Shown piece after piece: positions 5,953 to 15,238 of a DNA stretch of 64,000 bases. The notes below the pieces were generated by a model. It was given only the letters and a program-made list of their open reading frames with translations, ran no database searches and was not told where the DNA came from. The stretch's first letter is position 1, and each line of letters begins with the position of its first letter. This DNA comes from Patescibacteria group bacterium. GTDB lineage: Bacteria; Patescibacteriota; Patescibacteriia; SBBC01; CAIJZX01. The stretch spans positions 26,466 through 90,465 of the forward strand of contig JBBTRH010000005.1 of the NCBI GenBank assembly GCA_038065275.1, given 5' to 3'. The position numbers and the translations under genes were made by a program.

Positions 5953-7221
5953 TTATTTCAATAAATCATTAAGCTCACAAGAAAGCAGTGCTGATTTATT
6001 GAGCACGATCTCCTCTTTCTGATTTAGATTATCCGCCGTTATTCTAATAACTTTGGTGACCATACTGTCGCCGAGCATAACTTTATTTGTTTTTTTAAAA
6101 TAGTTTTCCGTTTTATTGTAAAACAAGGTGATATACTGTTTGACCTTATTACTAAGCTGGTCTTTCGGGCTAGTGGCCACTAAGGGAATTATTTTCTCAT
6201 TAATTTTTGTCGGTAAATCACCATCTTTAAAAATTATCCAGTATTCGCTTAGTGCAAAACGGACTACCGCGCTATTTTGATCTTCAGTGTCATAGAAAAA
6301 ACCAAAATAGTATATACCACTAAGAATGTCTTTTTGAACAATAATTTCGCGTAATGTCGTTACCACATGTATTTCGTACTTATCAACCAGTTTGAAATAA
6401 CTTTCTCGCCAGTTCGCTAGCCAATTTTCAATATAGATCCGATCTACAAATAACGGGAGGAGGTCTTGTTTTAAATTTTCATCGTTTACTTCATTCATCT
6501 GGAATGTGAGTTTGTCAAAAAGCGCACGGGGATTTTTTACGTCAATGCCCTTGGCGACTAGATAATCAAAATCGGGCACAATCTTTTTGTTCATGTACCA
6601 TAAAAGATCGTAGATATCTCGCCCCTTCTCCTCATATACAGCCTTCCCCACTCCACGAGTCCCACGCAGAAAAATCGCCGCAATCTTGCTGGCCATCAGC
6701 GCCCCCATATTGTAGGTCACAATCACAAATGAAAGCTGGTCTCGGTTTATCGGTATACGTTCAGTCACCGTCTTAGAAGGCGCAAAGTGATTGAGGTCAA
6801 GTTTCACATGCACCTGTTTCGAAGGATGCCCCAGGCTTAATACTTCACCGACATTGAATTTAAGCAACAGTCCTCTCCCGGTAACAGTTTTTATGGTGAG
6901 AAAATTAGTATCAGCAGCGTAGGTGTTGGAAAAGTGCTCGGCCATATCATTCACTAATTCATCCAAATACTTCTCCGTTATCGCGTGCGCGACTTCAAAA
7001 TCCAAGTCAACTGACATACGGTTAAGATCGTGGCAGATGCGCAACGCCGAACCGCCGTACATAATCCACTTGCTGTATTCAGGATGGCGGTAAATATAAT
7101 TGAGCACGTAAAACTGTAACTCTTCTTTGAGCGCGTTGCGACGTGTCTCTACATCAATCCCACCATAAGCTATAATGTCATCGAGTTTCCTTTGTAATAT
7201 CGTTAGTATCTGTTCACTCAT
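5953..7221 (-). CDS. abiEii: AbiEii/AbiGii-family nucleotidyltransferase toxin (type IV TA, DUF1814)
   Basis: 422 aa, AT-rich; YGGSALRICHDLNRMSVDLDF matches the AbiEii NTase core; 8-nt overlap with upstream partner. Confidence 0.7.
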   Translation of the reverse strand: MSEQILTILQRKLDDIIAYGGIDVETRRNALKEELQFYVLNYIYRHPEYSKWIMYGGSALRICHDLNRMSVDLDFEVAHAITEKYLDELVNDMAEHFSNTYAADTNFLTIKTVTGRGLLLKFNVGEVLSLGHPSKQVHVKLDLNHFAPSKTVTERIPINRDQLSFVIVTYNMGALMASKIAAIFLRGTRGVGKAVYEEKGRDIYDLLWYMNKKIVPDFDYLVAKGIDVKNPRALFDKLTFQMNEVNDENLKQDLLPLFVDRIYIENWLANWRESYFKLVDKYEIHVVTTLREIIVQKDILSGIYYFGFFYDTEDQNSAVVRFALSEYWIIFKDGDLPTKINEKIIPLVATSPKDQLSNKVKQYITLFYNKTENYFKKTNKVMLGDSMVTKVIRITADNLNQKEEIVLNKSALLSCELNDLLK

Positions 7222-7831
7222 GTAAGTATTTCTTAATCATTGCATGAAACTTTTCCTGCTCGGACTTATCCATCTGATCAAAGTCAATTCGCAGGTTTTC
7301 AATCAGTGTCTCAATTTTTCCTAATGCGGGTCTGCGAAACTGGTTCGTTCTGAAATAGAGTAAGTCGAACAGTGCTTTTGATGGAGAAGCGACGAAACAA
7401 TCAAACTTCGCTTTCGCTAAAGAGAAATCTGTAAATAGTGATTTCTGGATGGACTGGTAGGCAAAATTTCCAACTCTTGTCTTATACTCCCTTGTAACTT
7501 TAGGCGTAACCGAGGTAACGGAGTGTATCGTCTCTGTGGTGAGATCATAATACTGAAGCGCCGCCCACGAGCTAACGTACGACGGCGTACGAATGACGTT
7601 TGCGAGATAGAATGAGTATGAAATGTCATTTTTGTTCTTGTCGTAAAAATCCGCAGCAACATACAGTCCATTCCTAAGCTGGACAATTTCATTGTGCTTC
7701 AAGCCGCGGCTGATGTAGGTGTTTATTGTCGCGTCGGTAAGCCCAAGCTGTTTACCAAGCTGATAAACGGTATTTTTGCCAAAATGGGGCAAGGGTTTTA
7801 GCTGTTCTATGAGGTTTTTTCGGCTTTTCAT
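7214..7831 (-). CDS. abiEi: AbiEi-family antitoxin/transcriptional regulator
   Basis: 205 aa; N-terminal winged-helix-like region; directly upstream of and overlapping abiEii. Confidence 0.6.
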   Translation of the reverse strand: MKSRKNLIEQLKPLPHFGKNTVYQLGKQLGLTDATINTYISRGLKHNEIVQLRNGLYVAADFYDKNKNDISYSFYLANVIRTPSYVSSWAALQYYDLTTETIHSVTSVTPKVTREYKTRVGNFAYQSIQKSLFTDFSLAKAKFDCFVASPSKALFDLLYFRTNQFRRPALGKIETLIENLRIDFDQMDKSEQEKFHAMIKKYLHE

Positions 7832-7929
7832 AAGTATGACAGTAGTGTATCATATATGAAAAGTGGTGTCAAATGGTACTTATTCAATGACCAAAAGCGG
7901 CCTCCATTCCCGCACGCCCTCTCCTTCCG

Positions 7930-7970
7930 GCGCCCCGCCGCCGCATTTTCCCGCCGCCCGAGGGGTTCGT
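7930..7970. repeat. IR-A left copy: 41-bp perfect inverted repeat (GC-rich junction element)
   Basis: GCGCCCCGCCGCCGCATTTTCCCGCCGCCCGAGGGGTTCGT; exact reverse complement at 11353-11393; followed by a short hairpin and GCGCCGC. Confidence 0.8.
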
Positions 7971-7998
7971 GCCCCGCTTTGCGGGGCGCGCCGCTAAA

Positions 7999-8277
7999 TT
8001 ATGGTAATAAATTACGCCTCATCCAGTCAGTCACATCTTTTGAAATATTAAAAGTCGCCCAATTACTATTTGGAACTTCGATAACCATTACTTTGTCAAC
8101 CGATTTAATTCTATCCCTAATGCCATCCCGAATTTGTGCAATATCTATAGGAGTTTTGATTATCCAAGTATTGGCACACGGTCTTGCCCATTGTGAGGCG
8201 GTTTTAAGGTACGCTATCAAATTCGGATAACTATTTTCCGTATAACTTAGCTGATAAGATATTAAGAATGATTTCAT
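7999..8277 (-). CDS. hypothetical 92-aa protein immediately downstream of the PIN-like gene
   Basis: AT-rich ORF, 3-nt gap to upstream stop; no recognisable motif. Confidence 0.4.
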   Translation of the reverse strand: MKSFLISYQLSYTENSYPNLIAYLKTASQWARPCANTWIIKTPIDIAQIRDGIRDRIKSVDKVMVIEVPNSNWATFNISKDVTDWMRRNLLP

Positions 8278-8280
8278 ATC

Positions 8281-9339
8281 CTATGTCACATTATTACCTA
8301 GTCCGCCGTCTTCTTTAGGTTCTGTACTCGATACGCTTCCAGAGCTTAAATCACCTTGATCTTGAATATCAGAAACAGTAATTGGGCTGTTGTTAGATCC
8401 AATCGAATCAGTGGAAGAGGCAACTAATCCCTCCTCAGATTTTGCCAATTCTTGGTCCGTTTGTGTTGACTCTTTTAGTTTTTTAACTTTTTCAAGTAAA
8501 TCCTTGTTAAATTTCACTTTAAAATGCTGACCAGCATACTTCATAAATTGATCTGATTGGTACATGTGAAAAGAAACATTGGCGCGCTCCTTTACTTCTT
8601 TTAACAATTCATGTCTTGCGCCAATAATCGTTGCACCATTTAATCCACTAACCTTCCACCACCAATCCTCTTTTTGTTCGTCAGTTACAAAAATAATAGG
8701 GGTTTTTGCTTCTTGTGCCTTATCAAGTATCTGCATCCAAATAATAAGGTCGCCGAATTTACTCGTTCCAGTCTTATCTTCCTTGTCCTTTCTTTTCCTA
8801 TCAGAATAACCTGGCGGTATTTCTTTTTCGTATCTAGCCTCCCCATCTTTATATATTTCATTCAGCCTTTTATTGTCAAATGGCTTTCCGACCCTATTTT
8901 TTAATATTCGATTCAGCTCGATCTCTACTTTATCTTTATTCAAAAAGTCACAATACTTATTTTTTGATAAAACCACTTCTTTTTGAATAGTTTTAAAATT
9001 TAGTGATATTTTTTTTAGAATCAATTTAGAATCAAAAAGTTTATCAATTTCCTGTTCTGTAGTATTTAAAAGGCTAATACTTTCGTGGTGAGCCTTTTCT
9101 TGGGAGTGAATTACATACAGTCTATCTCGATAATATTCCAAAGCCACCTGGTGAGGTATCCAAACCCTCCCTCTTTTTTGTAACTCTTTAAGAATGATTA
9201 TTAGCTTAGCCCTTGCTTGTTGTGGGATGCGATATAGACTTAAAAGTACATTTGTGTCAAAAACAAACGTTGCTTCATCCCAAAGCTTAATAAAACTTCT
9301 CTTTGATGGCTTATTATACTCCGGAAAAAGATCTCTCAT
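8281..9339 (-). CDS. PIN-like domain protein (DUF4935-like)
   Basis: N-terminal FVFDTNVLLSLY PIN motif, further acidic residues, DEQKEDWWWK block; low-complexity S/T/D-rich C-terminal tail. Confidence 0.55.
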   Translation of the reverse strand: MRDLFPEYNKPSKRSFIKLWDEATFVFDTNVLLSLYRIPQQARAKLIIILKELQKRGRVWIPHQVALEYYRDRLYVIHSQEKAHHESISLLNTTEQEIDKLFDSKLILKKISLNFKTIQKEVVLSKNKYCDFLNKDKVEIELNRILKNRVGKPFDNKRLNEIYKDGEARYEKEIPPGYSDRKRKDKEDKTGTSKFGDLIIWMQILDKAQEAKTPIIFVTDEQKEDWWWKVSGLNGATIIGARHELLKEVKERANVSFHMYQSDQFMKYAGQHFKVKFNKDLLEKVKKLKESTQTDQELAKSEEGLVASSTDSIGSNNSPITVSDIQDQGDLSSGSVSSTEPKEDGGLGNNVT

Positions 9340-9438
9340 GCTTGGACTATTTAACTTCAGATGGGTTATCTCTCATGGGCTTGTTGTGCCAATGTTATTA
9401 CAAATCACAGAATAAACTCACAAAAACATTACATGTGT

Positions 9439-10236
9439 CTAAAAAATAGTAGTGACTTTATTGTACAACATTGACAAACAATCCTGCTTCATACGGAATT
9501 TCGTCCCATGATTGTGTCCGGTGCGAGCATCAAAATCAACGAGTATTTTTCCCTCTTCAAGTGCTTTCAAAAACCCTTCAAAACTGAATTTCTGTAGCAT
9601 CATCACTTTTGTATAATGATAGTATTCTTTCTTTTTATTAACATAAACTTCGGCCTGGACGTAAAAGGTATTTAAAAGCTTTGTACCCGCTTTATGCTCT
9701 AAGTCATCGAATCCCCAGTACGGCTGTGGATTTAATTCGCCAAGCCCAACACGTTTTTTAACCAGTTCAAGCCATCCCTTGTGTCGTGCATCAACTCCAG
9801 ACGCTTTAAATGAAATTAAAATTTTACGCTTATTTCGGTCGATTACGACTTTGAAACCTCGATCACTACGCGATTGTCCATGGATTGTTTGCCTAAAACT
9901 CATTTCTCCTGCTGGATACTTTTTTCCGTCCTCTTGGTGAGCCCATCCATATTGTGGTAATAAAACCTGTGGGACAAAGCGAATCGCTCGTGGTGACGGT
10001 TCAATATGAAAAAGTGTCGTGAGTGAAGTAGAGTTAAGTCTTTGAGTTTTTAACTCCCACTCAGCGGCATTAGGGATTGGTAGGTTATTTTCCTTAATGC
10101 CCAGTAAATCTTCAAGTGTATTCCCAATGCCACCGGCGTTTCCTCGACGTGCATTTGGGACCCACCCCAATTCTGAAATCTCTTTTAGCCGCTCAACTAG
10201 TGCTTCTTTAGTATAAATGACTGGTTTCTTTGCCAT
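9439..10236 (-). CDS. type II restriction endonuclease, MvaI/BcnI-like
   Basis: ORF 9439..10323 trimmed to MAKKPVIYTKEAL; last gene of C-M-R operon; family assignment by recall, not search. Confidence 0.5.
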   Translation of the reverse strand: MAKKPVIYTKEALVERLKEISELGWVPNARRGNAGGIGNTLEDLLGIKENNLPIPNAAEWELKTQRLNSTSLTTLFHIEPSPRAIRFVPQVLLPQYGWAHQEDGKKYPAGEMSFRQTIHGQSRSDRGFKVVIDRNKRKILISFKASGVDARHKGWLELVKKRVGLGELNPQPYWGFDDLEHKAGTKLLNTFYVQAEVYVNKKKEYYHYTKVMMLQKFSFEGFLKALEEGKILVDFDARTGHNHGTKFRMKQDCLSMLYNKVTTIF

Positions 10237-10240
10237 ACAG

Positions 10241-10996
10241 TTATAAAAGTTTTGACTGGGATTGATGTTGCTTAATCCTTTTACGCGCCATTTCACAGTA
10301 ATCGGGAGAAATATCAATGCCAATATACTTGCGTTTATGGTTAATTGCGGAAATGGCCGTCGTCCCTGACCCCATAAATGGATCTAAAACTACTTTAGCG
10401 TCTGTTGCCGAAATTATTCGGTCAATTAACTTTACAGGAAACGCGGCAGGGTGTTTATTGTTCATTTCTTGGGTAAACTCCCACACATCTCCGAGAGCAT
10501 TTGCTTTATCGGCAAGCTTAAATTTTGGTTTAGCAATCAAATAAATTACTTCGTAAGTCGGTAAAAAGTAACCGGCGTTAAAATTCAACCCACCTTTTCT
10601 TTTCCAAATGATTATCTGGCGCACGGGAAAACCAGCCACAATATCTTGTCGATCTTGCAAAAGTCCCGCCTGAACACGCCATTTATGATTGTAAAAAATT
10701 GCGCCATTCTCAGGAATAATTCTTAGCATTTCGGTAAGGGAGTCTCTTTGCCACTTCACATACTTTTCGTGCGGCATACTGTCATCATGATGAGAGTACC
10801 CATTTTGAAGTGCCGCGTTTGCCCATTTTCCACCCCGACCATCTTTCATTCCGTTTCCAGTTGAATTTTTTAGGTTATACGGAGGCGAAGTAACGACTAA
10901 ATCTACCGACCCGTCGGGTATTTGTTTCATTACATCAACGGCATTTCCGCAAATATTTTTGTTGATAAAATCTAATGGATAGTTGAGCTTTTTCAT
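10241..10996 (-). CDS. DNA methyltransferase, beta-class amino-MTase (N4-cytosine or N6-adenine)
   Basis: DLVVTSPPYN (motif IV) N-terminal and FDPFMGSGTT (motif I) C-terminal = beta-class order. Confidence 0.8.
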   Translation of the reverse strand: MKKLNYPLDFINKNICGNAVDVMKQIPDGSVDLVVTSPPYNLKNSTGNGMKDGRGGKWANAALQNGYSHHDDSMPHEKYVKWQRDSLTEMLRIIPENGAIFYNHKWRVQAGLLQDRQDIVAGFPVRQIIIWKRKGGLNFNAGYFLPTYEVIYLIAKPKFKLADKANALGDVWEFTQEMNNKHPAAFPVKLIDRIISATDAKVVLDPFMGSGTTAISAINHKRKYIGIDISPDYCEMARKRIKQHQSQSKLL

Positions 10997-10997
10997 A

Positions 10998-11273
10998 TTA
11001 CTTTAGAAGATCATCACTGGAAATTTCTAACGCTTGAGCAAGTCTTGCCACTGTCGAAAGAGTCACGTTTCTTTTACCATTCTCAATGCCACTAATGTAC
11101 GCTCTGTCAGCGCCAATTTTCGAAGCAATGTCTCCTTGGGACATTCCTTTCTTCGTCCGTATCTTTTTGAGATTATCGCCTAAACGGGAATTGATCGTAT
11201 CGGTATTCACTTGACCAATATACTCCCTTGTTGCACTATAGAGCAATAGTGTACTATAGTACACAAAGCACAT
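10998..11273 (-). CDS. controller (C) protein, XRE-family HTH regulator of the R-M system
   Basis: MSQGDIASKIGADRAYISGIENGKRNVTLSTVARLAQAL HTH; first gene of C-M-R operon; true start probably internal (GTG ~11210). Confidence 0.65.
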   Translation of the reverse strand: MCFVYYSTLLLYSATREYIGQVNTDTINSRLGDNLKKIRTKKGMSQGDIASKIGADRAYISGIENGKRNVTLSTVARLAQALEISSDDLLK

Positions 11274-11736: not shown

Positions 11737-12534
11737 ATGAGCATAAGAATTATCATGCGAGACAATAGCGGTAATAAGTTCTGGATTATTACCCCAAACA
11801 TTAGTATGTATAGCTTTGCGTCCAAATCAAAAAACGTGACTTTCTTGGAAATCTTTTATCGCTTTGCACAGGTTCTAGTTAAACCGCGGAAAGGGCTAAC
11901 AAAGGGTGAAGAGGAGAAGATACTTTTGTCGAGAAAACGGGTCTTGGTTGAGTTAAACAATAAGGTAATGGCGTTAAAATACCTTGCCAACGAATGTAAA
12001 AAGCAGGGCGAGAAATTAATTGCGAGAAAAGATAGCAAAAAGAGAATATACGACTATAAACCATATCAAGTTTTTCTGGCTCTTTGTGAAAGTTATCTGG
12101 ACACTGTACACAGTACCTACGATTGCATCGCTGATCTGGACGGGTTTTTAGGCAAGAAATATGCCCGTGCTATCAATAAAGAACAATGGTTTAAGATCGA
12201 TATGGATTTAAGAAACGTTTTTCATCACAACCAAAGCCCTCTAGTTACTATTGAGAAAGGGAAGGTAGATTTCACCATAGAAAAGCTACCAAGGAGCCCA
12301 AGATTTTTGACTCCGGCAATGAAAAACCCACACGGACGATACGAATTCTCTTTAGACCCAAAGGATTTGGGCGAAGACATTCTTACATTTCTTGAAAAAT
12401 GGGCAAAGCAATATTTGGATTTGATTGATGGCAACGAGAGCATTGACGCAATTGCGGGTTATAAAAAAGATGGTGGTGTAAGAACCAAGAAAGTCACCTT
12501 AAAAGAACTTATGAAACGAGTCGTTGCTACCTAA
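11737..12534 (+). CDS. hypothetical protein (265 aa) upstream of serine recombinase
   Basis: AT-rich ORF 6 nt upstream of recombinase start; no motif recognised; start may be an internal Met. Confidence 0.4.
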   Translation: MSIRIIMRDNSGNKFWIITPNISMYSFASKSKNVTFLEIFYRFAQVLVKPRKGLTKGEEEKILLSRKRVLVELNNKVMALKYLANECKKQGEKLIARKDSKKRIYDYKPYQVFLALCESYLDTVHSTYDCIADLDGFLGKKYARAINKEQWFKIDMDLRNVFHHNQSPLVTIEKGKVDFTIEKLPRSPRFLTPAMKNPHGRYEFSLDPKDLGEDILTFLEKWAKQYLDLIDGNESIDAIAGYKKDGGVRTKKVTLKELMKRVVAT

Positions 12535-12539
12535 AAACT

Positions 12540-14030
12540 ATGCGGTATTTTCTTTACGCTCGAAAATCAACCGAGGATGAAGAACATCAGATCATGTCCA
12601 TTGAGGCACAGCTCTTTGAGTTGTCCGAATATGCCAAGCGAGAAAAGATAACCATTGCCGAAAAGTTTATTGAAAGTAAAAGCGCGAAAAGTCCCGGTCG
12701 GGAAATTTTCGGCCAGATGATTGTCAAAATACAGGAAAGTAAAGAACCAATCGGCATTCTCGCTTGGCATCCTGATCGCTTGGCCCGAAATAGTATTGAT
12801 GGTGGTCAAATTATCTACCTCGTCGACGGCAAGAAAATCGCGGCCTTGCGTTTCCCGACATTCTGGTTTGAACCGACACCGCAAGGGCTATTCATGCTCC
12901 AAGTCGCGTTTGGCCAATCGAAATACTATTCGGACAACTTAAGCGAGAACGTGAAGCGCGGGATTCGTCAAAAACTCAGACGTGGTGAGTCCCCAAATTA
13001 TGCGGCAATCGGGTACGTCAATAATTTTAAAACCCGGACAATTGAACCCGATCCGTTCAAAGGGCGTGTCATCGCTAAAGCATTTGAAGAATATGCGAAA
13101 GGAATGCACACCCTCGAAAGTCTAGGCAAGCGTCTGAGTTTTTGGGGTATAGTCAGTCGGACCGGAAAGCCGCTCCCAAAAGCAACGTTGAGCCGAATGT
13201 TGACCAATCCGGTTCATTGCGGATTGATTCGGCATAATGGCGAAACATATCCGGGCGGTTTTGCCGCTAACGTCTCGATGGAGTTATTCGAAAAAGTCCA
13301 GAAAGTCTATAAGCAAAATCAAAAAGGTCATCATTTTCGTAAGCGTCATCATTTTGCTTTAACTGGACTATTGAAGTGCGGAGAATGTGGCGCGGCAATA
13401 ACCGCCCAAAATACCAAAGGTCATGGCGGTTGGTATGTGTATTATCGCTGTACCAAACGTCTTGGTCCTTGTAAGCAAGGATACATTCAACAAGAGCGGC
13501 TTTCCGATCTGATCCGCGCAAAGGTTCGAGAAGTTGCAATAAGCGAAGACTGGGCGAAGAAAATGTTGGATAAGGTAACGATGTGGGAAAATGAGATCGC
13601 CCAGTCTTCGCAGTCTTCCGCCCAAAATCTCAAAACAAGGATGAAGGAAACAGAATTACAGCTTGACCGCATAGTGAATGCTTTCCTTGATGGCTCTATT
13701 GAAAAGGCTGTTTATTTGGAAAAGAAAGATGCATTGATTAAAACTCAAACTGGCCTTGAACAGAAAAAGGCGGATTTTGGGCGGAAGACCCTTTATTGGA
13801 TCGAACCTTTGCGCCAGTGGATATTAGACGCTCAAAAGGCCGAAAAACTTGCTTCGTCGAACGATTTACCTGAATTGAAATCGTTCGCGGAAAAAATTGG
13901 AACGAACCGCCGCCTGGTGGATAAAAGCGTGCGGTGGATATTGGCTAAACCCTGGAATTTGACCGTAAACTTTCGCGGAAGTTTCATTTGGTGGGCCCCC
14001 CGGGACTCGAACCCGGAACTCTCAGCTTAA
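12540..14030 (+). CDS. large serine recombinase (resolvase/invertase N-domain + recombinase domain + zinc-ribbon)
   Basis: YARKSTEDE...SIEAQ catalytic Ser motif near N-terminus; 496 aa; Cys cluster CGECG...C..C; 3' end runs through IR-B and into the tRNA-Lys gene on the opposite strand. Confidence 0.8.
   Translation: MRYFLYARKSTEDEEHQIMSIEAQLFELSEYAKREKITIAEKFIESKSAKSPGREIFGQMIVKIQESKEPIGILAWHPDRLARNSIDGGQIIYLVDGKKIAALRFPTFWFEPTPQGLFMLQVAFGQSKYYSDNLSENVKRGIRQKLRRGESPNYAAIGYVNNFKTRTIEPDPFKGRVIAKAFEEYAKGMHTLESLGKRLSFWGIVSRTGKPLPKATLSRMLTNPVHCGLIRHNGETYPGGFAANVSMELFEKVQKVYKQNQKGHHFRKRHHFALTGLLKCGECGAAITAQNTKGHGGWYVYYRCTKRLGPCKQGYIQQERLSDLIRAKVREVAISEDWAKKMLDKVTMWENEIAQSSQSSAQNLKTRMKETELQLDRIVNAFLDGSIEKAVYLEKKDALIKTQTGLEQKKADFGRKTLYWIEPLRQWILDAQKAEKLASSNDLPELKSFAEKIGTNRRLVDKSVRWILAKPWNLTVNFRGSFIWWAPRDSNPELSA
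13901..13994. repeat. IR-B right copy (includes CCA end and 3' flank of tRNA-Lys)
   Basis: 93/94 identity to reverse complement of 11487-11580. Confidence 0.85.
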
Positions 14031-14063
14031 AAGGCTGATACTCTACCATTGAGTTAGGGACCC
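13992..14063 (-). tRNA. tRNA-Lys (anticodon UUU), CCA encoded at 13989-13991
   Basis: cloverleaf on minus strand: acceptor GGGUCCC/GGGGCCC, D-arm, anticodon loop CUUUUAA, T-arm CCGGGUUCGAGUCCCGG. Confidence 0.8.
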
Positions 14064-14308: not shown

Positions 14309-15238
14309 ATGAACATCCCGCCAGCCGCAACCCCGCCGCAGAATCCCGTCCGTCCATCGATCGGTAAGGCTTCTCTCAAAGCGCTTGGTTTTGGTCTCCT
14401 GCTCGCCATTCCGATGACGTACGTCTTCGCGTATGGCGCCTTCTCGTTCATCTCGTACTTCCGGTTGAGCTACAACTGGGGCCTAGCCGGGATGTTCATT
14501 CCCTTCATCATCCTCTTCTATGGTTTCGCCGCCAACGCCATCATCATGGGCCTCACCACCTTCATCACCCTCGAACGGTCGCGCCGACCCTACCTCCACG
14601 CCGTCCTCATCGGCTTGATCGTCAACCTCCTGTTCATCATCGGCGGCTGGGGCTACAACCTCTATGCGTATCAAGGCCGGTTGACCGAGTTAAAGGCCCA
14701 ACGGAACAATGACAGTTACGTCACGGCTAAGGGTATTGCTGATTGCGCTAAGCTGACTGATGTCCAGTACTGGCGGGTGTGCATCAATAACAAGGTTGCC
14801 ACCGCCGCCGACAAAGCCGCCTGTGACACCCAAGCGATAAAATACGCCGCTCAATCCGGCGGAGCGACGAGCGAGTGCGCGCAAGAGCTGGCGATCAGTT
14901 CCGGATCGACTGCCCTCTGCGCCGATGTGCCGCTCAACGGCAACGCCTACGCCAATCAACGCGATTGCCTGTCCAAAACGATTCAGAAATCTTGGGAGAA
15001 GAACGACCGGAAAACGCCGCTGGCGATTGTCGAAGGATGCGCCGCCATCACCGATCCCCAGGAGAAGCAGTTCTGCTACGTCGTCTCGCTCCGTCAACTT
15101 ACAAAAGGCGATCCGGCCGCGACTGTTGCTTGCCAGCGCCTCGATCCGCACTTGTGGTTCGGCCCAATCAGCACCGCTGACAACGACCTGACGAATATCA
15201 AGAATGTCTGCGGTCTGACTATTACCCCGACTTCGTAG
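14309..15238 (+). CDS. membrane-anchored cysteine-rich protein, unknown function
   Basis: N-terminal ~3 TM helices then Cys-rich soluble domain. Confidence 0.45.
   Translation: MNIPPAATPPQNPVRPSIGKASLKALGFGLLLAIPMTYVFAYGAFSFISYFRLSYNWGLAGMFIPFIILFYGFAANAIIMGLTTFITLERSRRPYLHAVLIGLIVNLLFIIGGWGYNLYAYQGRLTELKAQRNNDSYVTAKGIADCAKLTDVQYWRVCINNKVATAADKAACDTQAIKYAAQSGGATSECAQELAISSGSTALCADVPLNGNAYANQRDCLSKTIQKSWEKNDRKTPLAIVEGCAAITDPQEKQFCYVVSLRQLTKGDPAATVACQRLDPHLWFGPISTADNDLTNIKNVCGLTITPTS

What the first reader, a model, noticed from the sequence alone, without database searches (positions are those of the whole stretch)
7999..9339. Candidate two-gene defence/TA-like module: PIN-like DUF4935 protein plus tightly coupled 92-aa partner
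A 352-aa protein has an N-terminal PIN-type motif (FVFDTNVLLSLY plus downstream acidic residues) and a W-rich conserved block (DEQKEDWWWK). It is followed after 3 nt by a 92-aa ORF with no recognisable domain. The pair sits between AbiE and an R-M system inside an AT-rich island, a context typical for anti-phage modules. I cannot assign this pair to a named system from memory.
Basis: inference. Interest (0 to 1): 0.6.

Follow-up and report, generated by a model that had tools for sequence, protein, structure and literature searches.

The report
PIN nuclease with Cas2-like partner
Two tightly coupled genes in a mobile island encode a PIN-type nuclease and a small Cas2-like protein, and this pairing recurs across distant bacteria and often sits next to restriction-modification genes, so it is probably an undescribed toxin-antitoxin or phage-defence module.

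Summary
On the minus strand, a 352-aa ORF (8281-9339) is followed after 3 nt by a 92-aa ORF (7999-8277), inside an AT-rich island inserted at tRNA-Lys. The label needs correcting. The large protein is a PIN_8 member (PF18476, E=6.5e-52). DUF4935/PIN_12 falls below its threshold.

The 92-aa protein does have a recognisable fold. It belongs to a large unnamed branch of the Cas2/VapD family (pLDDT 95; top fold hits are all Cas2, VapD or GhoS; 19 of 109 relatives hit Pfam Cas2). The Cas2 catalytic Asp is Gln here.

The pair is conserved in all 8 PIN-seeded look-ups and in about 30 loci. The gene order is inverted on two Enterobacterial plasmids. The same small protein also follows PIN_12 nucleases and two families of 2-TM membrane proteins. 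Long-form PIN_8 proteins lack it (0 of 81 loci).

The pair often abuts R-M operons of many families, as it does in the window.

Neither protein matches a PADLOC defence-system model; relatives of the small protein match only the Cas2 models. I found no paper describing the pairing.

My best reading is a TA/abortive-infection module in which the nuclease is the effector and the Cas2-like protein neutralises or regulates it. The mechanism is inferred, not shown.

The parts
8281..9339 (-). Short-form PIN_8 nuclease gene (352 aa), the predicted effector
   Evidence: ORF. Pfam PF18476 at E=6.5e-52, residues 25-232. phrog_9788 at E=1.7e-56. D28, E68, D197 and D225 are invariant in 77 homologs. The AF2 model has pLDDT 87, with residues 1-303 confident.
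8644..9267 (-). PIN_8 Pfam domain (aa 25-232), including the long helical insert (aa 63-211) and the W-rich DEQKEDWWWK hairpin that follows beta4
8284..8421 (-). Disordered acidic Ser/Thr/Asp-rich C-terminal tail of the PIN_8 protein (aa 307-352)
   Evidence: pLDDT below 50 for residues 307-352. Comparable tails occur in PIN_8, PIN_12 and 210-aa membrane partners of the small protein in other loci.
8278..8280 (-). 3-nt spacer between the PIN stop codon (TAG) and the small-gene ATG, which suggests translational coupling
   Evidence: In relatives the gap is -4 to +16 nt.
7999..8277 (-). Gene for the 92-aa Cas2-family small protein, the predicted neutraliser or regulator of the effector
   Evidence: [quoted passage not shown] Top Foldseek PDB hits are Cas2, BPSL1038, GhoS and VapD. 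19 of 109 family members hit PF09827 and 26 of 109 hit PADLOC Cas2 models. phrog_1090 at E=2e-17. Position 9, the Cas2 catalytic Asp, is Gln.
9340..9438 (-). 99-nt spacer between the REase gene and the PIN gene. It may hold a weak promoter (TTGTGA-17-TAATAA, by eye), or the pair may be read through from the R-M operon
   Evidence: Sequence. The promoter scan found nothing above threshold on this strand. In L002-L005 and L178 the upstream R-M gene overlaps the PIN gene by 4 nt.
9439..10323 (-). MvaI/BcnI-family type II restriction endonuclease gene (the true start is probably near 10236)
   Evidence: PF15515 at E=9e-67. 83% identical to the L002 REase, aligned from residue 30.
10241..10996 (-). 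N4/N6 DNA methyltransferase gene of the same R-M system
   Evidence: PF01555 at E=2e-39. 84% identical to the L002 MTase.
10998..11273 (-). HTH_3 protein, probably the controller (C) protein of the R-M operon
   Evidence: PF01381 at E=1.1e-15. The C-protein role is inferred from position.
5953..7831 (-). AbiEi (7214-7831) and AbiEii (5953-7221), a neighbouring and separate defence/TA module. Context only
   Evidence: PADLOC AbiEi at E=1.3e-36 and AbiEii at E=1.9e-30. Pfam AbiEii.
12540..14063 (.). Large serine recombinase (12540-14030, +) and tRNA-Lys (13989-14063, -), which mark the right border of the AT-rich island

Best explanation
The two genes form a conserved bicistronic toxin-antitoxin or abortive-infection type module, carried on a tRNA-Lys-integrated island and probably co-transcribed with, or appended to, the adjacent HTH-MTase-REase operon. 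The 352-aa protein is a short-form PIN_8 Mg2+-dependent nuclease, most likely an RNase as in the VapC-like PIN group, and I take it to be the growth-arresting effector. The 92-aa protein is a divergent Cas2-fold protein that probably works as a dimer. It has lost the Cas2 catalytic aspartate, and I take it to keep the nuclease inactive by binding, until a trigger such as phage infection or loss or failure of the element releases the nuclease. Shown here: family membership, an intact PIN acidic site, the Cas2-like fold, conserved tight pairing, promiscuous pairing of the small protein with other effector-type proteins, and location on mobile or defence islands. Inferred: toxicity, direction of control, RNA as substrate, the trigger, and any anti-phage effect.
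For: 1. The PIN_8 assignment is strong, and D28, E68, D197 and D225 are invariant.
2. The small protein is Cas2-like by fold (Cas2c, T. onnurineus Cas2, BPSL1038 at TMq 0.72, GhoS, VapD). It is also Cas2-like by sequence for part of its family.
3. In 8 of 8 PIN-seeded short-form loci a 90-91-aa gene lies immediately downstream. For L001, L002, L006, L008 and L009 the downstream gene was confirmed homologous to the window's small protein.
4. About 19 of 56 small-seeded metagenome loci have PIN_8 directly upstream, with gaps of -4 to +16 nt.
5. The pairing also occurs with inverted gene order on Klebsiella pC51_006 and Rahnella pHW114B.
6. The same small protein follows PIN_12/DUF4935 nucleases. 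It also follows two families of 2-TM membrane proteins. These are classic toxin or effector types, which makes the small protein the common regulatory partner.
7. The Cas2 catalytic Asp is present in only 49 of 109 members and is Gln in the window's clade, whereas W30, W38, W73, W85, Y17 and R50 are near-invariant. This fits binding rather than catalysis.
8. There is precedent for a Cas2-fold antitoxin: GhoS, paired with the membrane toxin GhoT (PMC4010927).
9. Long-form PIN_8 proteins (385-547 aa) are monocistronic. 0 of 81 loci have a small homolog nearby and no other recurrent partner appears. The partner therefore goes with the short form, which has a disordered tail in place of the C-terminal extension. 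The two Enterobacterial plasmids, where a 574-aa PIN_8 has the partner upstream, are exceptions.
10. The contexts are defence islands, R-M operons, small plasmids and recombinase-bearing islands.
Against: 1. No experiment or structure shows that the two proteins interact. I could not run a complex prediction.
2. Neither protein matches any PADLOC v2.0.0 defence-system model. The window proteins have no hit, and relatives of the small protein match only Cas2 models. Anti-phage function therefore rests on context alone.
3. Many PIN_8 genes exist without any partner, including on 4-kb plasmids. PIN_8 is therefore not obligatorily toxic, and the partner need not be an antitoxin.
4. Small-family genes occur alone in temperate phages and small plasmids. 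The small protein therefore has a function of its own.
5. About 45% of the family keeps the Cas2 Asp, so some members may be active nucleases.
6. The small protein lacks the DNA-binding or disordered features typical of type II antitoxins. Here it is the larger protein that carries the disordered tail.
Confidence: 0.5

Rival explanations
1. The pair is an R-M-linked back-up or guard module, an accessory of the adjacent restriction-modification system in the manner of PrrC with EcoprrI. The nuclease would be kept latent while the R-M system is intact, and unleashed when a phage inhibits restriction or when the R-M cassette is lost. This can coexist with the TA-like reading.
For: In the window the pair directly follows HTH-M-R on the same strand. 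The upstream R-M gene overlaps PIN by 4 nt in L002-L005 (MvaI/BcnI) and L178 (Tsp45I system). An MmeI-like enzyme follows 5 nt after the pair in L009. An EcoRI-type MTase follows 8 nt after the pair in L041, and a DpnII REase lies downstream in L084. EcoO109I/C5-MTase/Vsr lies upstream in L179. In L014 and L052 an effector-small pair sits between an N6_N4 Mod and a ResIII nuclease. At least 9 of 15 pair loci of 4.6 kb or more have R-M genes, against 1 of 82 solo PIN_8 control loci. The PrrC analogy is discussed in PMC3506569.
Against: The pair also occurs without any nearby R-M system: L008 among housekeeping genes, L180, and small plasmids. The R-M families involved are unrelated, so no specific protein contact is likely. 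The control is confounded by taxon (CPR metagenomes against prophages of cultured bacteria) and by a reference set drawn from the pair loci themselves. The window's R-M is 83-84% identical to that of L002 while PIN and small are only 57% and 68% identical, which suggests the cassettes assort independently.
Confidence: 0.2
2. The small protein is itself the toxin or a co-effector, a VapD/Cas2-type nuclease, and the PIN_8 protein is a second nuclease or its regulator. Alternatively the small protein is a type V-like antitoxin that cleaves the effector's mRNA, as GhoS does, rather than binding the protein.
For: The Cas2/VapD family contains bona fide RNase toxins, and stand-alone Cas2 homologs occur on mobile elements without antitoxins (PMC3506569, PMC6452270). 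BPSL1038, the best TM match, is an active nuclease (PMC10491678). About 45% of the family keeps the catalytic Asp. Solo copies in phages and plasmids show autonomous function. GhoS turns into a toxin with two mutations (PMC4010927). Small 2-TM partners (~100 aa) resemble the GhoT architecture.
Against: In the window's clade the catalytic Asp is Gln, and elsewhere it is His, Asn or Lys. The upstream partners are nucleases with intact sites, or membrane proteins, which is not what antitoxins look like. No sequence-level match to GhoS or VapD was found. Only weak Cas2 matches appear.
Confidence: 0.2
3. The two genes are functionally unrelated neighbours that co-occur only because both are common cargo of defence islands.
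For: Each family can occur without the other.
Against: Adjacency with gaps of -4 to +16 nt on the same strand is kept in about 30 loci with unrelated flanks and down to 41% PIN identity. It recurs in Gammaproteobacteria and, with inverted order, on Enterobacterial plasmids.
Confidence: 0.03

Closest known systems
VapBC-type (PIN toxin) type II toxin-antitoxin systems
   Same: A PIN-superfamily nuclease of the VapC-like structural group with an intact acidic tetrad. It is encoded in a tightly coupled two-gene cassette on mobile DNA.
   Different: The PIN protein is 352 aa, with a ~150-aa helical insert, a C-terminal alpha/beta subdomain and a disordered tail, where VapC is ~130-150 aa. The partner lies downstream and is a Cas2-fold protein, not an RHH, AbrB, HTH or Phd DNA-binding antitoxin. 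Most PIN_8 relatives are monocistronic.
GhoS/GhoT type V toxin-antitoxin system
   Same: A ~95-aa Cas2-fold protein serves as the non-toxic partner of a toxin. GhoS is among the top fold hits. In related loci the same small family partners small 2-TM membrane proteins that resemble GhoT in architecture.
   Different: There is no sequence-level match to GhoS. The partner in the window is a nuclease, not a membrane peptide. The gene order is effector first. mRNA cleavage is untested, and the Cas2 catalytic Asp is absent here.
Cas2 / VapD / BPSL1038 nucleases
   Same: [quoted passage not shown] 19-26 of 109 family members hit Cas2 HMMs. Tandem-duplicated forms suggest a dimer, as in Cas2.
   Different: None of the loci inspected showed cas1 or a CRISPR array, although I ran no dedicated search for them. 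The catalytic Asp at the end of beta1 is only ~45% conserved and is Gln in the window. The signature is four near-invariant Trp residues. No Pfam or NCBIfam model covers the family.
Panacea (PanA) hyperpromiscuous antitoxin domain / NetFlax network
   Same: One small conserved partner is combined with several unrelated toxin or effector families (PIN_8, PIN_12, two 2-TM families).
   Different: The fold is unrelated (Cas2-like rather than DUF4065). Neutralisation has not been tested. The NetFlax main text mentions no Cas2 or VapD node.
PrrC/EcoprrI and RloC (R-M-linked suicide nucleases)
   Same: A latent nuclease gene is embedded in or appended to an R-M operon.
   Different: There is no ABC-ATPase or anticodon-nuclease domain. 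The linkage is to many unrelated type II, IIG and III R-M families, and is not obligatory.

Membership tests
Pfam PIN_8 (PF18476; Matelska et al. 2017 cluster PIN_8, VapC-like group) | Sequence score above the family gathering threshold | tested here: met
   177.1 bits against a cut-off of 26.1, E=6.5e-52, covering profile positions 2-218 of 227
Pfam PIN_8 (PF18476; Matelska et al. 2017 cluster PIN_8, VapC-like group) | 4-5 conserved acidic active-site residues | tested here: met
   D28, E68, D197 and D225 are invariant, and E224 and T219 near-invariant, in 77 homologs. Matelska lists 4-5 acidic residues for this cluster (PMC5499597).
   30.5 bits against a cut-off of 32. It is the sister family. 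True PIN_12 proteins partner the same small protein in L039 and L061.
Cas2/VapD superfamily (small protein) | [quoted passage not shown] | tested here: met
   AF2 pLDDT 95.2. The top 15 Foldseek PDB hits are Cas2, BPSL1038 or GhoS, and VapD ranks 33. Probability is 1.00, TMq 0.52-0.72, and E 5e-3 to 5e-2.
Cas2/VapD superfamily (small protein) | Sequence match to Cas2 HMMs (PF09827, TIGR01573) | tested here: inconclusive
   The window protein itself has no hit. 19 of 109 relatives hit PF09827 (best 2.8e-7), 26 of 109 hit PADLOC Cas2 models, and 3 of 109 hit TIGR01573.
Cas2/VapD superfamily (small protein) | Catalytic Asp at the C-terminal end of beta1 | tested here: not met
   Gln9 in the window and its clade. 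Asp in 49 of 109 family members.
Cas2/VapD superfamily (small protein) | Association with cas1 or a CRISPR array (for bona fide Cas2) | not tested
   The gene tables of the window flank and of about 15 annotated loci list no cas1. I ran no dedicated cas1 or CRISPR-array search on the window or the other loci.
Type II VapBC toxin-antitoxin | Small (~130-150 aa) PIN toxin with an upstream DNA-binding antitoxin | tested here: not met
   The PIN protein is 352 aa. The partner lies downstream and has no HTH, RHH or AbrB match.
Type II VapBC toxin-antitoxin | Toxicity of the PIN protein neutralised by the partner | not testable with these tools
   This needs expression and neutralisation assays.
Type V GhoST | Cas2-fold antitoxin that cleaves the toxin mRNA, paired with a small membrane toxin | tested here: inconclusive
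   The fold resemblance to GhoS is met (rank 5). Membrane-toxin-like partners occur in related loci but not in the window. RNase activity cannot be tested here.
Named anti-phage systems (PADLOC-DB v2.0.0) | Match to any system protein model | tested here: not met
   No hit at E<=0.1 for either window protein. Small-family members hit only Cas2 models. Systems described after 2023 could not be checked.
R-M-linked suicide nucleases (PrrC/RloC) | ABC-ATPase domain plus anticodon-nuclease domain | tested here: not met
   Only PIN_8 was detected.
R-M-linked suicide nucleases (PrrC/RloC) | Gene embedded in or adjacent to an R-M operon | tested here: met
   The window arrangement and at least 9 of 15 longer pair loci.

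The most novel reading that the evidence does not exclude
The 92-aa protein may represent a large, unnamed Cas2-family branch that acts as a hyperpromiscuous adaptor. Under this reading it holds diverse suicide effectors latent (PIN_8 and PIN_12 nucleases, 2-TM membrane proteins), perhaps by docking onto their acidic disordered C-terminal tails. It would also couple them functionally to whichever R-M system they are fused to. Inhibition or loss of restriction would then trigger abortive infection. The orphan copies in temperate phages would be counter-defence decoys. This would be a new, modular R-M guard layer, prominent in CPR bacteria.
Probability: 0.15. Interest if true: 0.85.

Novelty: new variant of a known kind. 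Interest (0 to 1): 0.62.

Why it matters
If the module works as proposed, it has three consequences.

- It gives PIN_8 and DUF4935, two sizeable PIN families listed as 'function unknown' since 2017, a first functional context.
- It defines a new, large, non-CRISPR branch of the Cas2 family (at least 1100 clusters at 50% identity) whose conserved role appears to be partner binding rather than catalysis. That bears on the long-standing idea that Cas2 descends from toxin-antitoxin components.
- It reveals a modular effector-plus-adaptor cassette repeatedly grafted onto R-M operons. The examples are mostly in CPR/Patescibacteria, whose defence repertoire is poorly known.

The Klebsiella pC51_006 trio and the window pair are small enough to test directly.

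Tried and rejected
**Family and library scans**
- The DUF4935 assignment was rejected because it scores below threshold, whereas PIN_8 is strong.
- NCBIfam and PADLOC gave nothing for either window protein.
- PHROGs matched families of unknown function only.

**Structure comparisons**
- A PDB sequence search with either protein or with the small-family profile gave nothing significant.
- Foldseek of the whole PIN_8 model against PDB gave no significant match. The best PIN-like hit was HARP RNase P at probability 0.35, and the helical insert probably masks the core.
- The BFVD search gave only unnamed phage proteins.

**Tests of specific ideas**
- I tested whether long PIN_8 proteins carry a fused small domain. 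They do not; their C-termini are coiled-coil-like or HNH.
- Fusion proteins in the small family are tandem duplications, not PIN fusions.
- I tested whether long-form PIN_8 has another recurrent small partner. It does not.
- I tested whether the GC-rich patch at 7880-7998 is a repeated element or a structured RNA. It is unique in the window, and its fold is no better than shuffles.
- I looked for att-like direct repeats flanking the island and found none.

**Literature**
- Searches for PIN_8, PF18476, DUF4935, Cas2-like with PIN, and NetFlax found no description of the pairing.

**Searches that failed or found little**
- Scans with the broad alignment A3 failed because it has no conserved 7-10-mer.
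- The Klebsiella trio is absent from complete E. coli genomes. By near-identity it is confined to one plasmid.
Full report
**1. Observation**

The minus strand carries a 352-aa ORF (8281-9339) and a 92-aa ORF (7999-8277). The junction reads TAG-gat-ATG, so the spacer is 3 nt and both ORFs are in the same frame.

The region lies in a 35-47% GC island within a sequence of about 58% GC. On the right the island is bounded by a large serine recombinase (12540-14030), whose 3' end overlaps tRNA-Lys (13989-14063).

The neighbours are as described. AbiEi and AbiEii lie at 5953-7831. On the same strand as the pair lie an MvaI/BcnI REase, an N4/N6 MTase and an HTH_3 protein, at 9439-11273. Identical proteins are on record from a 183-kb contig named 'Patescibacteria group bacterium'.

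**2. The large protein**

It is a strong member of Pfam PIN_8 (PF18476, E=6.5e-52). Matelska et al. 2017 defined PIN_8 as a VapC-like PIN cluster of unknown function with 4-5 acidic residues (PMC5499597).

In an alignment of 77 homologs, D28, E68, D197 and D225 are invariant. So are R169, P175, P176, G177, D180, G196, W201 and W226.

The AF2 model has pLDDT 87. It shows a PIN core with a long helical insert (about residues 63-211), the W-rich beta-hairpin, a small C-terminal alpha/beta unit ending near residue 303, and a disordered acidic Ser/Thr-rich tail at 307-352. No solved structure resembles the whole model.

**3. The small protein**

It has no Pfam, NCBIfam or PADLOC hit itself, but it matches phrog_1090 over its whole length.

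An exhaustive profile search found 1120 cluster representatives at E<=1e-3. Nearly all are stand-alone proteins of 85-95 aa.

[quoted passage not shown] The best PDB matches are all from the Cas2 family: Cas2c, T. onnurineus Cas2, BPSL1038 (TMq 0.72), TT1823, GhoS and VapD. Foldseek probability is 1.00, although the E-values are only 5e-3 to 5e-2. [quoted passage not shown]

Sequence supports the fold assignment independently. 19 of 109 family members hit Pfam CRISPR_Cas2 (best 2.8e-7), and 26 of 109 hit PADLOC Cas2 models and essentially nothing else.

The Cas2 catalytic Asp at the end of beta1 is Gln in the window's clade and Asp in only 49 of 109 members. By contrast W30, W38, W73, W85, Y17 and R50 are near-invariant.

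Two proteins carry tandem copies of the domain, which fits a dimeric unit.

**4. Is the pair a unit?**

Yes. All eight PIN-seeded look-ups of short-form relatives (44-58% identity) show a 90-91-aa gene directly downstream. For L001, L002, L006, L008 and L009 the downstream gene was confirmed homologous to the window's small protein at 44-70% identity.

Among 56 metagenome loci seeded with the small protein, about 19 have PIN_8 immediately upstream, with gaps of -4 to +16 nt.

The pairing also occurs in a Gammaproteobacteria MAG (L011). It occurs with inverted gene order on the 5.2-kb Klebsiella plasmid pC51_006 and on Rahnella pHW114B. There a 91-aa small-family protein (hhalign probability 99.7%) precedes a 574-aa PIN_8 and follows a 220-aa protein with weak Abi_2/HEPN hits.

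**5. The small protein is promiscuous**

In other loci it follows, just as tightly, four other kinds of partner:
- PIN_12/DUF4935 nucleases, in 4 loci at E about 1e-12;
- a ~210-aa family with two TM helices and a coiled coil, in 11 loci;
- a ~100-aa family with two TM helices, in 8 loci;
- a 155-aa TM protein.

These are all effector or toxin-type proteins.

In temperate phages (phiFL1A gp05, CP51, 587AP2, phi4B1) the small gene stands alone in the lysogeny-control region, transcribed in the int/repressor direction.

Conversely, 81 loci with long-form PIN_8 (385-547 aa), mostly from prophages, have no small-family gene within 3 kb and no other recurrent partner. PIN_8 also sits alone on a 4.2-kb Psychrobacter plasmid. 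In the CPR and metagenome loci the partner therefore goes with the short form, whose C-terminal extension is replaced by a disordered tail. The two Enterobacterial plasmids, where a long-form PIN_8 has the partner upstream, are exceptions.

**6. Link to restriction-modification**

The pair repeatedly abuts R-M genes of unrelated families:
- MvaI/BcnI in the window, in L002-L005 (REase stop overlaps the PIN start by 4 nt) and in L032.
- Tsp45I with an N6_N4 MTase in L178, overlapping by 4 nt.
- EcoO109I, a C5-MTase and Vsr in L179.
- An MmeI-like enzyme 5 nt after the pair in L009.
- NgoFVII in L006.
- An EcoRI-type MTase 8 nt after the pair in L041.
- DpnII in L084.

In L014 and L052 a 2-TM effector and the small gene sit between a Mod-like MTase and a ResIII nuclease.

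As a lower bound, at least 9 of 15 pair loci of 4.6 kb or more contain R-M genes. Only 1 of 82 solo PIN_8 control loci does. This control is confounded by taxon and by the origin of the reference set.

Against a strict functional dependence, some pair loci lack R-M (L008, L180, plasmids). Also, the window's R-M is 83-84% identical to that of L002 while PIN and the small protein are only 57% and 68% identical.

**7. Mechanism**

I commit to a TA/abortive-infection-type module, at about 0.5 confidence. PIN_8 would be the nuclease effector, probably acting on RNA as in the VapC-like group. A dimer of the Cas2-fold protein would be the non-catalytic neutraliser or regulator that stands in for the missing C-terminal regulatory region.

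Precedent exists for a Cas2-fold antitoxin (GhoS with the membrane toxin GhoT; PMC4010927). Precedent also exists for one antitoxin domain serving many toxins (Panacea/NetFlax).

The rivals are:
- an R-M guard role, which is compatible with the main reading (0.2);
- the small protein as a VapD-like toxin or a GhoS-like mRNA-cleaving antitoxin (0.2);
- coincidental adjacency (0.03).

One observation remains unexplained. PIN_8, PIN_12 and the 210-aa membrane partners all end in acidic S/T/D/E-rich disordered tails with a loosely recurring phi-S-phi-S-S-x-D element. This could be a docking motif.

**8. Novelty**

Neither protein matches a system model in PADLOC v2.0.0, and the small family has no model in NCBIfam or Pfam.

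The full-text searches found only the 2017 PIN classification for PIN_8 and DUF4935, and nothing on a Cas2-like/PIN pairing. Earlier papers do note stand-alone Cas2-like genes on mobile elements as presumed toxins (PMC3506569, PMC3710099).

I classify the finding as a new variant of a known kind: a two-gene TA/defence module with a PIN effector and a previously undescribed Cas2-family partner.

Caveats: supplementary tables of defence-discovery papers and post-2023 model sets could not be searched, and no function has been demonstrated.

Noticed in passing
window 7880-7998: A ~120-nt patch of about 75% GC separates the AT-rich AbiE cassette from the AT-rich PIN/small cassette. It contains a GC hairpin (GCCCCGC-AAA-GCGGGGC) just after the small-gene stop, with no T-run. 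It is unique in the window, and its fold energy is no better than shuffles. It may be a remnant of host sequence marking two separate insertions.
   Followed up: partly
window 5953-7221: The AbiEii homolog is 422 aa. The Pfam AbiEii match covers only residues 45-273, leaving about 140 C-terminal residues unassigned.
   Followed up: no
window 11737-12534 (+) and 14309-15238 (+): Two ORFs of 265 aa and 309 aa have no Pfam, NCBIfam or PADLOC family. The first has only a very weak BrxB hit (E=0.014) and lies directly upstream of the serine recombinase.
   Followed up: no
window 12540-14063: The 3' end of the large serine recombinase ORF overlaps tRNA-Lys(ttt) on the opposite strand. This marks the island as tRNA-integrated. 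No att-like direct repeats were found.
   Followed up: partly
L014 2257-7980; L052; L013/L060: In these CPR loci a 2-TM effector and the Cas2-like gene lie between a Mod-like N6_N4 MTase and a ResIII helicase-nuclease, with overlapping or nearly abutting genes. The pair is inserted inside what looks like a type III-like R-M operon.
   Followed up: partly
L026 (OW970412.1) and about 25 other 4863-5112-bp ColRNAI plasmids: A near-identical small plasmid is spread across Klebsiella, Enterobacter, Citrobacter and E. coli. It carries a small-family (Cas2-like) gene without PIN_8, together with an AAA_21 ATPase and a 145-aa ORF.
   Followed up: partly
L028 2644-2916 (Clavibacter pCM1): RefSeq annotates a small-family homolog as 'Smr/MutS family protein', yet Pfam finds no domain in it. 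The annotation may be wrong.
   Followed up: no
L079, L080, L087-L092 (human-gut metagenome and IMG/VR contigs): A clade of small-family genes in gut phage contigs has His at the Cas2 catalytic position and no tightly coupled same-strand neighbour.
   Followed up: no
L058 4287-5675; L081 2050-3543: Shedu-type (SduA_C) nuclease genes lie immediately downstream of the small-family gene in some loci. This is another defence-type neighbour.
   Followed up: no
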